Origin: a virus
Taxonomy: Duplodnaviria > Heunggongvirae > Uroviricota > Caudoviricetes
Direction: 5' to 3' (one strand)
DNA: 64,000 nucleotides
Virus record (IMG/VR): IMGVR_UViG_2541047759_000001
In this document: piece by piece, positions 60,862 to 61,670 of the stretch
How the letters are laid out: each line of letters starts with the position of its first letter
Position numbering within the stretch: position 1 is the first letter of the stretch
Notes under the pieces: generated by a model
Told to the model about the DNA's origin: nothing
The model's input: only the letters and a program-made list of their open reading frames with translations
Databases searched by the model: none
Translations under genes and position numbers: made by a program

Positions 60862-60925
60862 TCCTTCCTGGAATTATGGCCCGTTACGGGGCGGCGACCT
60901 CGCGGGTTTTCGCTATTTATGACGT
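60862..60925 (+). other. Island cos site copy 1: lambda-type cosN, cohesive end GGGCGGCGACCT at 60889-60900, direct orientation
   Basis: ccgttacGGGGCGGCGACCTcgcgggttttcgctatttatga, near-identical to prophage 21905-21945; downstream sequence diverges. Confidence 0.75.
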
Positions 60926-60989
60926 TTTTCCGTGAAGGTGACACCACCACCACTTGATTAATATTTAACCATGCAGTTAAGGTAACATT

Positions 60990-61424
60990 ATGATTGATAA
61001 AGCTTGTTTTGTAAGTCAGCAGGAAATAGCTGAACATTTCAAGGTTAACAGAACCACTATTCGCGCATGGACCAAACAGGGGATGCCGTATCTTAATGCG
61101 GATCGCGGAAAGTCTGGCGGTTATCACATCGGGCATACATTGCTTTGGTCTTCAGGTAAAAGCCGTCTTGAGGCCATCAGATATCACGTAGAAACCAGTG
61201 CGCTGGAAAAAATTATGTTTGCCAGGCTGCTTTCATCTGAGCGTGACGAGTACTCCAGTGAAGAAACAGAACATCGATTTGATGAAGGTTTGCAGATTTA
61301 CGGCTATTCACCGGAAGATGTGAGCAAGGCACGAAATAAAATGGCTGGCTTTCTGGCTGGGTGGCGTCATGCCGTAAGCGTTCGCCGTGCCAGCATGGAG
61401 CAATCAGCCGATACAGAACAGTAA
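60990..61424 (+). CDS. Terminase small-subunit-like protein with Nu1-type N-terminal HTH and unrelated C-terminus
   Basis: ...QQEIAEHFKVNRTTIRAWTKQGMPYLNADRGKSGG... parallels the recalled lambda Nu1 N-terminus (..LADIFGASIRTIQNWQEQGMPVLRGGGKG..); C-terminus lacks the gpA-interacting motif seen in the prophage Nu1. Confidence 0.6.
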   Translation: MIDKACFVSQQEIAEHFKVNRTTIRAWTKQGMPYLNADRGKSGGYHIGHTLLWSSGKSRLEAIRYHVETSALEKIMFARLLSSERDEYSSEETEHRFDEGLQIYGYSPEDVSKARNKMAGFLAGWRHAVSVRRASMEQSADTEQ

Positions 61425-61469
61425 AGCCGATAACTTGTTAATCACTCGCAGCAATGCATGTGATTTGTG

Positions 61470-61670
61470 CACACTTTCGGTTAACTGGTTCGATGTCCGG
61501 TTTTAGTGTCTGTTTTTTGCGCATGTCCGGTTCATGGAAAGCATGTTTTTATATTTTTCATATGGTTAACTTGCAGAGAAACCGGACATGGATCCCGAAA
61601 AATTTTCATAAATAGTGAAAACGCGCGAGGTCGCCGCCCCGTAACGGGCCATAATTCCAGGAAGGACCCG
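61470..61670 (-). other. Island cos site copy 2 (inverted): cosN (61628-61639) plus phage-like cosB with ATGTCCGG repeats
   Basis: Reverse complement matches prophage 21905-22070 over cosN and the ccatgtccggtttctct.caagttaac.atatgaaaaat region. Confidence 0.75.

What the first reader, a model, noticed from the sequence alone, without database searches (positions are those of the whole stretch)
60862..61670. Two lambda-type cos sites in inverted orientation bracketing a Nu1-like gene inside the satellite
The 12-nt cohesive-end sequence GGGCGGCGACCT with its flanks occurs twice in the island: direct at 60889-60900 and reverse-complemented at 61628-61639, within ~58-bp inverted arms (60862-60918 versus 61617-61680). 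The inverted copy carries a near-complete phage-like cosB (ATGTCCGG repeats, ~61480-61627); the direct copy keeps only cosN and then diverges. Between them lies a gene whose N-terminus resembles the Nu1 DNA-binding HTH but whose C-terminus does not resemble the prophage Nu1 region thought to contact gpA. Possible roles are redirecting the helper terminase to island DNA, interfering with helper packaging, or both. The inverted cosN pair is unusual for a unit-length packaged element.
Basis: partly seen in the sequence, partly recalled or inferred. Interest (0 to 1): 0.85.

Follow-up and report, generated by a model that had tools for sequence, protein, structure and literature searches.

The report
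Known satellite packaging module: cos1–rppA–cos2
This is the already published packaging module of the E. coli phage satellite EcCICFT073: two lambda-type cos sites flank rppA, whose product hijacks the helper phage's small terminase, so the finding is real but not new; the second cos site is a strictly conserved copy of another phage family's packaging site, and the cassette is flipped in some strains.

Summary
A 78-nt inverted repeat (60858-60935 / 61593-61670, 91% complementary) carries cosQ and cosN twice and brackets a 144-aa ORF (60990-61424).

It is already known. The window holds an EcCICFT073-family PICI inserted between roxA and phoQ. Fillol-Salom et al. (ISME J 2018; Mol Cell 2019) described these two sites as cos1 (direct) and cos2 (inverted), and the ORF as RppA (c1503). 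RppA binds helper TerS, blocks phage packaging and redirects terminase to the cos1 cosB.

Four points go beyond the text of those papers:
- cos2 is a complete phage-type cos. It is about 93% identical to PhiR12-type phages and homologous to the prophage cos at 21912 in this window, whose TerS is 100% identical to PhiR12 Nu1.
- The 246-nt cos2 block has no differences in five island haplotypes whose neighbouring sequence diverges by up to 13%.
- The whole cassette is exactly inverted in 15 complete genomes, which look like one lineage.
- Relatives without rpp carry only a direct PhiR12-type cos plus terS remnants.

The best untested reading is that cos2 is an Rpp-independent packaging site for a second class of helper phage.

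The parts
51232..51306 (+). attL of the ~11.15-kb island (direct repeat with attR)
   Evidence: 75-nt direct repeat, 79% identical, spacing 11152. The integrase gene starts at 51307.
60415..60828 (+). c1502-like gene (137 aa), the last gene before cos1
   Evidence: ORF list. Matches phrog_1999, with a weaker match to the C-terminal part of head maturation protease phrog_53.
60835..60857 (+). GC hairpin plus T-run (GCCGGAGAAATCCGGCTTTTTT), a terminator-like element immediately before the left arm
   Evidence: Read directly from the sequence. The consensus scan did not flag it. A 94% identical copy lies at 58395-58425 (D3).
60858..60935 (+). Left inverted-repeat arm, the cos1 core (cosQ about 60854-60868, cosN, proximal right flank)
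   Evidence: Identified as cos1 from Fig. S1A of PMC6739421.
60889..60900 (+). cosN of cos1 (GGGCGGCGACCT)
   Evidence: Exact match.
60930..61070 (+). cos1 cosB, island-specific and RppA-responsive. It overlaps the rppA 5' end and holds the conserved motif ACACCACCACCACTTGATT (60941-60959).
   Evidence: The limits are those of the phi80 chimera primers in Table S5 of PMC6739421. No phage match extends beyond 60940. The motif is conserved in RppB-like E. coli islands and Klebsiella islands.
60990..61424 (+). rppA (c1503), encoding the 144-aa redirecting-phage-packaging protein
   Evidence: The first 50 aa are identical to the published RppA. It is the same protein as RefSeq WP_000565609.1 of CFT073. 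RppC crystal structure 6hlk matches at E=5e-31. Residues 7-47 match the TerS family phrog_57.
61425..61670 (-). cos2, a complete phage-type cos (cosQ-cosN-cosB) read on the minus strand. The block is invariant.
   Evidence: Identified as cos2 from Fig. S1A. It is 93.3% identical over 179 nt to phages PhiR12_1 to PhiR12_5 and collinear with the window prophage cos. It shows 0 differences in 5 island haplotypes (p=2e-9).
61628..61639 (-). cosN of cos2
   Evidence: Exact match.
61580..61590 (-). R3-equivalent box CATGTCCGGTT of the cos2 cosB
   Evidence: It aligns with the annotated R3 box of phage 21.
61492..61532 (+). R2- and R1-equivalent boxes (61522-61532 and 61492-61502), opposite in orientation to the R3 box
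61593..61670 (-). Right inverted-repeat arm
61704..61985 (+). c1504-like gene (93 aa) downstream of cos2
   Evidence: Matches phrog_1561, function unknown.
62384..62458 (+). attR of the island
21880..22106 (+). cos of the co-resident lambdoid prophage (cosQ, cosN at 21912-21923, cosB with CATGTCCGG-type boxes), homologous to island cos2
22107..22616 (+). Prophage small terminase (169 aa), PhiR12 type
   Evidence: 100% identical to PhiR12_1 Nu1. Pfam Phage_Nu1 matches only residues 49-150. The N-terminus is divergent and shows no PDB match to the lambda Nu1 DNA-binding domain.

Best explanation
The region is the packaging module of an EcCICFT073-family phage-inducible chromosomal island, in the order cos1 (direct) - rppA - cos2 (inverted). 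The published mechanism, shown experimentally by others, is as follows. RppA is a dimer whose N-terminal winged-HTH mimics the TerS DNA-binding domain. It pairs with the helper's TerS (lambda, phi80) in place of a second TerS domain. The hybrid no longer recognises the phage cosB, so phage packaging is blocked. It does recognise the island-specific cosB of cos1, which lies between cosN and the first ~26 codons of rppA, so the helper's TerL cuts cosN there and fills phage capsids with island concatemers. My inference, not shown, concerns cos2. It is not a degenerate duplicate but a complete cos of another lambdoid specificity class (PhiR12 type, CATGTCCGG R boxes). A PhiR12-type TerS, such as the one encoded by the prophage about 39 kb upstream in this window, should recognise it directly without Rpp. 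This would give the island a second, Rpp-independent route into capsids. Because the two sites converge, the cassette between them can be inverted, and in one lineage it has been.
For: Identity of the element: the region is 99.3-100% identical to CFT073 and related genomes, and the island backbone is 97% identical to CFT073. It has the same roxA/phoQ context, att repeats, and integrase, AlpA and D5-type primase. Assignment of cos1, cos2 and RppA: the sequences printed in Fig. S1A and the RppA alignment. Mechanism: PMC6739421 and PMC6092414; RppC structure match at E=5e-31. The cos1 cosB is island-specific: no phage match past 60940, and the motif is conserved in RppB-like and Klebsiella islands. 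cos2 is phage-type: 93.3% identity over 179 nt to PhiR12 phages; it is collinear with the prophage and PhiR12 cos up to the position where the phage terS gene begins; its first R box aligns with phage 21 R3; the prophage TerS is 100% identical to PhiR12 Nu1. cos2 is under constraint: 0/246 differences against 116/1325 in the flanks. Relatives use this cos type alone: L018 has a single direct PhiR12-type cos plus a terS remnant and no rpp. Single substitutions in lambda TerS abolish RppA binding, and the PhiR12-type TerS N-terminus is far more divergent than that, so Rpp probably does not engage it.
Against: No experiment has tested a PhiR12-type helper. In published assays cos2 gave only reduced plasmid transfer with lambda and phi80, was not stimulated by RppA, and its deletion increased lambda-mediated island transfer. 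Most island-bearing genomes have no second cos2-type copy: 42 of 51. The 9/51 versus 3% enrichment is not corrected for phylogeny, and I did not verify that the second copies are prophages, except in this window. The invariance of cos2 could reflect recent recombinational spread rather than selection.
Confidence: 0.9

Rival explanations
1. cos2 is a functionless or mildly deleterious remnant of phage DNA captured by recombination with a PhiR12-like phage. Only cos1 and RppA matter.
For: Deleting cos2 increases transfer by lambda, RppA does not stimulate cos2, and cos1 is essential. The family is highly mosaic around cos, with terS remnants and a terS::rpp fusion. Klebsiella and Salmonella rpp islands have only the upstream cos.
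Against: The 246-nt block shows 0 differences across five haplotypes while adjacent genes diverge by up to 13%. All three R boxes, cosQ and cosN are intact. A convergent cos pair also flanks rpp in RppB-like islands that have a different cosN and cosB. Both sites were reported functional on plasmids.
Confidence: 0.2
2. cos2 is an interference or decoy site. It attracts helper terminase to abortive or misdirected cleavage, or it balances island against phage packaging, rather than serving island transfer.
For: cos2 competes with cos1, since its deletion raises transfer. Cutting both convergent sites would release the 739-bp cassette and leave non-complementary island ends (inferred from cosN geometry).
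Against: Such a site lowers the island's own transfer, with no demonstrated benefit. Phage interference is fully accounted for by RppA: deleting c1503 restores plaques. Relatives without rpp keep this cos type as their only packaging signal.
Confidence: 0.12
3. The inverted arms form a programmed invertible switch (phase variation) that controls rppA expression or the choice of cos site.
For: Both orientations exist in nature with 0 mismatches in the cassette. In a wider assembly collection, 8 of 28 contigs read were in the inverted state.
Against: There is no invertase gene in or next to the cassette. All 4 independent CFT073 assemblies have the same orientation. The inverted genomes share one backbone variant and cluster on flanking sequence, so one inherited event is enough to explain them. 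The rppA upstream region flips with the gene, so its expression need not change.
Confidence: 0.06
4. The duplication is an assembly artefact or a chance similarity.
For: None found.
Against: The arrangement is identical in 68 complete genomes. It has been verified experimentally by deletion and cloning of each site. The chance expectation for cosN is 0.26 per window.
Confidence: 0.01

Closest known systems
EcCICFT073 cos1 / RppA (c1503) / cos2 (Fillol-Salom et al., ISME J 2018, PMC6092414; Mol Cell 2019, PMC6739421)
   Same: It is the same element family, the same RppA protein and the same two cos sites in the same order. The cassette from cos1 cosN to cos2 cosN is 100% identical to CFT073.
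   Different: The island backbone is only about 97% identical. In this window the cosQ-cosN spacer of cos1 has been replaced by the cos2 version, with 8 differences from CFT073. This lengthens the perfectly identical inverted run from 25 to 47 nt. The strain also carries a prophage whose cosB matches cos2. The papers tested lambda, phi80 and the phage-21-type phi4.
Phage lambda cos / Nu1 (TerS)
   Same: cosN is identical, cosQ is near-identical, and the first ~34 nt right of cosN are shared. The RppA N-terminus aligns with the Nu1 winged-HTH.
   Different: Neither island site has lambda R boxes (CGTTTCC). RppA lacks the Nu1 C-terminal half (Pfam Phage_Nu1 is not detected in RppA), which is the part that binds gpA (general lambda terminase knowledge).
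PhiR12-type and phage 21-type lambdoid cos sites
   Same: The cos2 cosB is collinear with PhiR12 and with the window prophage. It has three R boxes in the layout R3 versus inverted R2 and R1. The first box aligns with the annotated phage 21 R3.
   Different: The box is CATGTCCGG, against (C/G)TGTCGG in phage 21 and phi4. After the last box the island sequence departs from the phage and runs into the 3' end of rppA instead of terS.
Satellites that carry a helper-type cos: P4, cos-type SaPIs (SaPIbov5; SaPIbov4 with two putative cos sites), HE-PICI 11capE
   Same: These satellites are packaged by helper terminase through a copied helper cos. 11capE shares 258 bp at 90% identity with its helper's cos. 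SaPIbov4 is cited as also having two cos sites.
   Different: This island combines a helper-type cos with a second, satellite-specific cos that works only with a satellite-encoded TerS mimic.
Invertase-driven invertible segments (Hin/Gin/Cin, fimS)
   Same: A short segment bounded by inverted repeats is found in both orientations in natural isolates.
   Different: There is no recombinase gene, the arms are cos sites, and the orientation is stable within lineages.

Membership tests
Gram-negative cos-type PICI (EcCICFT073 family) | Integrase at one end, flanking att direct repeats, and a size of about 10-15 kb | tested here: met
   Integrase domains are present. The att repeats lie at 51232-51306 and 62384-62458, 11152 bp apart.
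Gram-negative cos-type PICI (EcCICFT073 family) | AlpA activator and a primase-type replication module | tested here: met
   PF05930 Phage_AlpA matches at 3e-17, and D5_N, DUF5906 and Pox_D5 domains mark the primase.
Gram-negative cos-type PICI (EcCICFT073 family) | No terminase, tail or lysis genes of its own | tested here: met
   ORF list and RefSeq annotation of the homologous CFT073 island. Only gpE-like, gpD-like and c1502-like late genes are present.
Gram-negative cos-type PICI (EcCICFT073 family) | Helper-dependent induction and high-frequency transfer | not testable with these tools
   Shown experimentally for the CFT073 island (PMC6092414), not for this variant.
Rpp (redirecting phage packaging) protein family | Sequence homology to RppA, RppB or RppC | tested here: met
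   The first 50 aa are identical to the published RppA. It is the same protein as RefSeq WP_000565609.1 of CFT073. RppC (6hlk) matches at E=5.3e-31 over residues 2-125.
Rpp (redirecting phage packaging) protein family | N-terminal winged-HTH resembling the TerS DNA-binding domain, and a C-terminus unrelated to TerS | tested here: met
   Weak matches to lambda TerS DBD chains over residues 6-57. phrog_57 matches residues 7-47 only. No Phage_Nu1 domain is detected. See also alignment A4.
Rpp (redirecting phage packaging) protein family | Binds helper TerS, blocks phage packaging and promotes cos1 packaging | not testable with these tools
   Shown experimentally for the identical protein in PMC6739421.
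Lambda-type cos site | 12-nt cosN GGGCGGCGACCT with an upstream cosQ | tested here: met
   Both island copies are exact. cosQ GGGTCCTTCC is present in both arms.
Lambda-type cos site | cosB with lambda R boxes (CGTTTCC-type) bound by Nu1 | tested here: not met
   Neither cos1 nor cos2 aligns with the lambda R boxes. The publication reaches the same conclusion.
PhiR12-type phage cos (applies to cos2) | Collinear cosQ-cosN-cosB with three CATGTCCGG-type boxes | tested here: met
   93.3% identity over 179 nt, alignment A2 and the box positions.
PhiR12-type phage cos (applies to cos2) | Recognised and cut by PhiR12-type terminase | not testable with these tools
   No experiment is known. A full-text search for PhiR12 found no paper containing the term.
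Programmed invertible switch | A dedicated site-specific invertase adjacent to or within the segment | tested here: not met
   The only ORF in the cassette is rppA. The neighbouring genes are c1502-like and c1504-like.
Programmed invertible switch | Both orientations co-exist within a clonal population | tested here: inconclusive
   Both orientations exist between lineages. However, 4/4 CFT073 assemblies agree with each other and the inverted genomes form one cluster. Read-level data are not available.

The most novel reading that the evidence does not exclude
cos2 is a selectively maintained second packaging signal that lets the island be packaged, without Rpp, by a third lambdoid terminase specificity class. 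That class is the PhiR12 type, and the prophage about 39 kb upstream in this very window belongs to it. The island would then carry two helper-specific packaging routes: cos1 with RppA for lambda and phi80-type TerS, and cos2 for PhiR12-type TerS. Because the two cosN sites converge, cutting both leaves the same 5' overhang (GGGCGGCGACCT) on both ends of the 739-bp cassette. Terminase cleavage followed by re-ligation, or ordinary recombination across the 47-nt identical run, can therefore flip it, as seen in 15 complete genomes.
Probability: 0.4. Interest if true: 0.55.

Novelty: already known. Interest (0 to 1): 0.27.

Why it matters
As submitted, the finding re-discovers a well-characterised system: EcCICFT073 cos1, cos2 and RppA, with crystal structures 6HLK and 6HN7. 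Its main value is as validation of the first-stage reader. The residual value lies in cos2. The published work left its role open: it is functional on plasmids, unresponsive to RppA, and its deletion improves lambda-mediated transfer. The text I read (main text, Fig. S1A and Fig. S5 legends) says no phage cosB could be identified in the island. This analysis shows that cos2 is a complete cos of a different lambdoid class and is invariant across diverged islands. Related islands that lack rpp use this class as their only cos. That turns the question of why there are two cos sites into a directly testable hypothesis about helper range. It would also explain how one satellite can exploit helpers whose TerS cannot be captured by Rpp.

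Tried and rejected
- Chance or artefact was rejected.
- A known RNA family in the cos2 block was ruled out, with no Rfam match at E<=1.
- Fast phase variation was rejected as the main reading. There is no invertase, 4/4 CFT073 assemblies agree, and the inverted genomes form one cluster.
- I first read the "31 genomes with the inverted junction" as 31 inversions. Inspection showed that only the 15 genomes with 100% junction identity are likely exact inversions. I verified two of them in the complete-genome set, and three inverted loci in the wider collection, one of which is the same strain. The rest are mosaic relatives lacking intact rpp.
- I looked for a phage counterpart of the inverted cos in RppB-like islands. 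I found only a weak 70-nt hit, and just 3 complete E. coli genomes carry that site, so the dual-specificity idea could not be generalised.
- A full-text search for PhiR12 found no paper containing the term.
- Promoter and terminator consensus scans around rppA gave hits at background level and were not used as evidence.
- Co-occurrence of the island with a second cos2-type copy is enriched (9/51 versus 3%). I treat this only as a hint, because it is not corrected for phylogeny and the second copies were not inspected.
- Sequence cannot distinguish RecA-mediated from terminase-mediated inversion, because the breakpoint interval (60858-60904) contains cosN.

Full report
**1. Observation**

The 12-nt lambda cohesive-end sequence GGGCGGCGACCT occurs exactly three times in the window. 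The positions are 60889-60900 (+), 61628-61639 (-) and 21912-21923 (+). Only 0.26 matches are expected by chance, and none of 100 shuffles reaches three.

The two island copies lie in a 78-nt inverted repeat, 60858-60935 versus 61593-61670. It is 91% complementary, with 657 nt between the arms. The first 47 nt of the arms (60858-60904) are perfectly identical. Between the arms lies a single 144-aa ORF, 60990..61424 (+).

**2. What it is**

The region is 99.3-100% identical to E. coli CFT073 and relatives. In CFT073 it lies in the island between roxA and phoQ. The window's island runs from attL 51232-51306 to attR 62384-62458, a spacing of 11,152 bp. It encodes a tyrosine integrase, AlpA, a D5-type primase and SSB. 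It also encodes a gpE-like capsid protein, a gpD-like decoration protein and two small late genes. Its backbone is about 97% identical to that of CFT073. This is therefore an EcCICFT073-family PICI.

Two papers describe exactly this feature.
- Fillol-Salom et al. 2018 (PMC6092414) reported two cos sites in EcCICFT073. Deleting cos1 strongly reduced lambda- and phi80-mediated transfer. Deleting cos2 increased it. Deleting both abolished it.
- Fillol-Salom et al. 2019 (PMC6739421) named c1503 RppA, a 144-residue protein. They showed that it binds the helper TerS, blocks phage packaging and promotes packaging from cos1 through the cos1 cosB. They also solved the structures of RppC and of the RppC-TerS complex.

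Fig. S1A of the 2019 paper prints the sequences. cos1 is the direct copy, and its cosB runs into the rppA coding sequence. cos2 is the inverted copy with the CATGTCCGG repeats. The first 50 residues of the printed RppA are identical to the window ORF.

The window protein is also the same RefSeq protein as CFT073's, WP_000565609.1. It matches the RppC crystal structure 6hlk at E=5e-31 and, weakly, the lambda TerS DNA-binding domain over residues 6-57. Only residues 7-47 match a small-terminase family, and no Nu1 C-terminal domain is detected.

**3. cos1**

Beyond about 35 nt right of cosN, cos1 matches no phage in 50,697 phage records. This agrees with the published statement that its cosB is island-specific.

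The segment contains the motif ACACCACCACCACT..TTGATT.A..TTTAA...AAGGTAAC..ATG. The motif is conserved upstream of rpp in RppB-like E. coli islands and in Klebsiella islands, even where cosN itself differs. It is the obvious candidate for the element read by the Rpp-TerS hybrid. That is an inference.

**4. cos2 is a genuine phage-type cos of another specificity class**

The papers state that no phage cosB could be identified in the island. Their comparison set was lambda, phi80 and the CFT073 helper phi4, which Fig. S5 shows to be phage-21-like in both its R boxes (CATGTCGG) and its TerS.

Read on the minus strand, cos2 is 93.3% identical over 179 nt to the cos regions of phages PhiR12_1 to PhiR12_5. 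It is collinear with the cos of the prophage in this same window, from cosQ through all three R-like boxes. The homology ends at the position where the phage terS gene begins.

The boxes lie at 61580 (-), 61522 (+) and 61492 (+) in the island, and at 21961 (+), 22019 (-) and 22049 (-) in the prophage. This is the layout of one R3 box facing inverted R2 and R1 boxes. The first box aligns with the annotated R3 of phage 21.

The prophage's TerS (22107-22616) is 100% identical to PhiR12_1 Nu1. It has a Nu1-like C-terminal half, but its N-terminus is divergent and shows no detectable match to the lambda Nu1 DNA-binding domain. At least three cosB/TerS classes are therefore in play: lambda and phi80, phage 21 and phi4, and PhiR12. 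cos2 belongs to the third, which the papers did not test.

**5. cos2 is conserved, not decaying**

I aligned five island haplotypes (CFT073, 2014C-3307, EcPF5, SMBL and 042) to the window. The 246-nt cos2 block (61425-61670) has no differences in any of them. By contrast:
- the adjacent c1504 gene is 86.9-95% identical in four of them (100% in CFT073);
- the cos1 cosB is 87% identical in two of them;
- c1502 is 88-99.8% identical.

For 2014C-3307 the contrast is 0/246 against 116/1325, with Fisher p=2e-9.

Related islands without rpp carry this cos type in direct orientation right after c1502.
- L018 has it as its only cos, followed by the first 24 codons of a PhiR12-type terS.
- L017 has it followed by a 69-aa fusion of terS codons 1-9 to the C-terminal half of RppA. 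By my reading of the sequences, the join falls at a shared TTGCCAGGC.

Islands of this family evidently do rely on the PhiR12-type cos. RppB-like E. coli islands also carry a convergent cos pair around rpp, although with another cosN and cosB. Klebsiella and Salmonella relatives show only the upstream site within the sequence examined.

**6. The cassette is inverted in some genomes**

I built the junction expected if the cassette were flipped and searched 5,426 complete E. coli genomes. Thirty-one carry such a junction, 15 of them at 100% identity.

In WP4-S17-ESBL-08 and KGu016, rppA (the same protein accession) lies on the opposite strand between unchanged neighbours. The sequence shows zero mismatches to an in-silico inversion of the window across the cassette plus 200 nt on each side.

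The 15 genomes share one island backbone variant. In a wider collection, the inverted loci cluster on flanking sequence. All four independent CFT073 assemblies have the window orientation. One inherited inversion is therefore enough to explain the data, and I do not claim programmed switching.

The representatives I inspected of the other 16 junction-positive genomes (five loci, one per identity class) are the mosaic relatives lacking intact rpp described above.

The breakpoint interval (60858-60904) contains cosN, which leaves two mechanisms open. The first is RecA-type recombination across the identical run. The second follows from cosN geometry: terminase cuts both convergent sites, both cassette ends then carry the same 5' overhang, and both flanks carry its complement, so re-ligation in either orientation is possible.

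The outer part of the left arm exists in two versions. One equals the cos2 arm (window, SMBL, 042) and the other is distinct (CFT073, 2014C-3307, EcPF5). The two versions cut across otherwise similar haplotype pairs, so the arms are recurrent exchange points.

**7. Mechanism and confidence**

The identity of the element and the cos1-RppA mechanism are settled, by sequence identity to an experimentally dissected system. I put confidence at about 0.9 or higher.

The role of cos2 is not settled. My preferred reading, with probability about 0.4, is that cos2 is an Rpp-independent packaging site for PhiR12-type helpers. Single substitutions in lambda TerS already abolish RppA binding. A TerS with an unrelated N-terminus is therefore unlikely to be captured by Rpp, and the island would need that phage's own cos.

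The alternatives are a tolerated remnant, a decoy site, or a switch. Each is scored in the rivals section. Evidence against my reading is as follows. cos2 is costly with lambda. Most island-bearing genomes lack a second cos2-type copy. The invariance could reflect recent spread rather than selection.

**8. Verdict**

Interest is low for the finding as written. The phage-class assignment of cos2, its strict conservation and the natural inversion appear not to be discussed in the two papers. The word "inverted" does not occur in either main text. Together they give a concrete and cheap experiment.

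Noticed in passing
window 60858-61670; loci L012, L013, L027, L028, L032: The whole cos1-rppA-cos2 cassette is exactly inverted in 15 complete E. coli genomes and in 8 of 28 contigs read from a wider collection, with 0 mismatches to an in-silico inversion of the window. The inverted genomes share one island backbone and cluster on flanking sequence, so this is probably one inherited event.
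   Followed up: yes
L014-L018 (SCU-172, ST130, LH50-c, 2012C-4221, FDAARGOS_943): Related islands without rpp, at other att sites, carry a direct PhiR12-type cos after c1502. It is followed variously by a terS remnant (24 codons), a terS(1-9)::rppA C-terminal fusion ORF of 69 aa, or rpp 3' fragments plus an inverted cos with a third cosB type (GGTTGTTGT repeats).
   Followed up: partly
window 60858-60900 versus L001 (CFT073), L021-L024: The cosQ-cosN spacer of cos1 exists in two versions. The window, SMBL and 042 have the cos2 version. CFT073, 2014C-3307 and EcPF5 have a distinct one with 7-8 differences. The two versions cut across otherwise similar haplotypes, which suggests repeated gene conversion or recombination at the arms.
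   Followed up: partly
L003, L004, L005 (RppB-like E. coli islands): These islands keep the cos - rpp - inverted cos layout and the cos1-type CACCACCACCAC motif. Their cosN is not the lambda sequence (for example GAGGGTACGTGTACGCGC), and their inverted site has its own cosB repeats (AATTTCCGGTTTT / AAACCGGAAGTCGG). Only 3 complete E. coli genomes carry this inverted site at full length.
   Followed up: partly
window 58794-60828: The island encodes a lambda gpE-like major capsid protein, a gpD-like decoration protein and a 137-aa protein (c1502-like) that weakly resembles the C-terminal part of head maturation proteases. This trio is conserved next to rpp in E. coli, Klebsiella and Salmonella relatives. 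The literature says such PICI capsid genes are common and not required for transfer (PMC10111431).
   Followed up: partly
window 58395-58425 and 60835-60865: A 31-nt element (GC hairpin, T-run, then ACGGG(G/T)CCT, which is the start of a cosQ-like sequence) occurs twice at 94% identity. One copy follows the ssb gene and the other lies immediately before cos1.
   Followed up: no
window about 1400-45000 (cos 21912, TerS 22107-22616, TerL to 24516; tRNA-Met 13476-13551, tRNA-Arg 13652-13726): What looks like a full-length lambdoid prophage with PhiR12-type terminase lies a few kb upstream of the island, separated from it by what look like pot genes, pepT and roxA. It is the natural candidate for a cos2-cognate helper. 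Among 51 island-bearing genomes, 9 have a second cos2-type copy, against about 3% of other genomes. This comparison is not corrected for phylogeny.
   Followed up: partly
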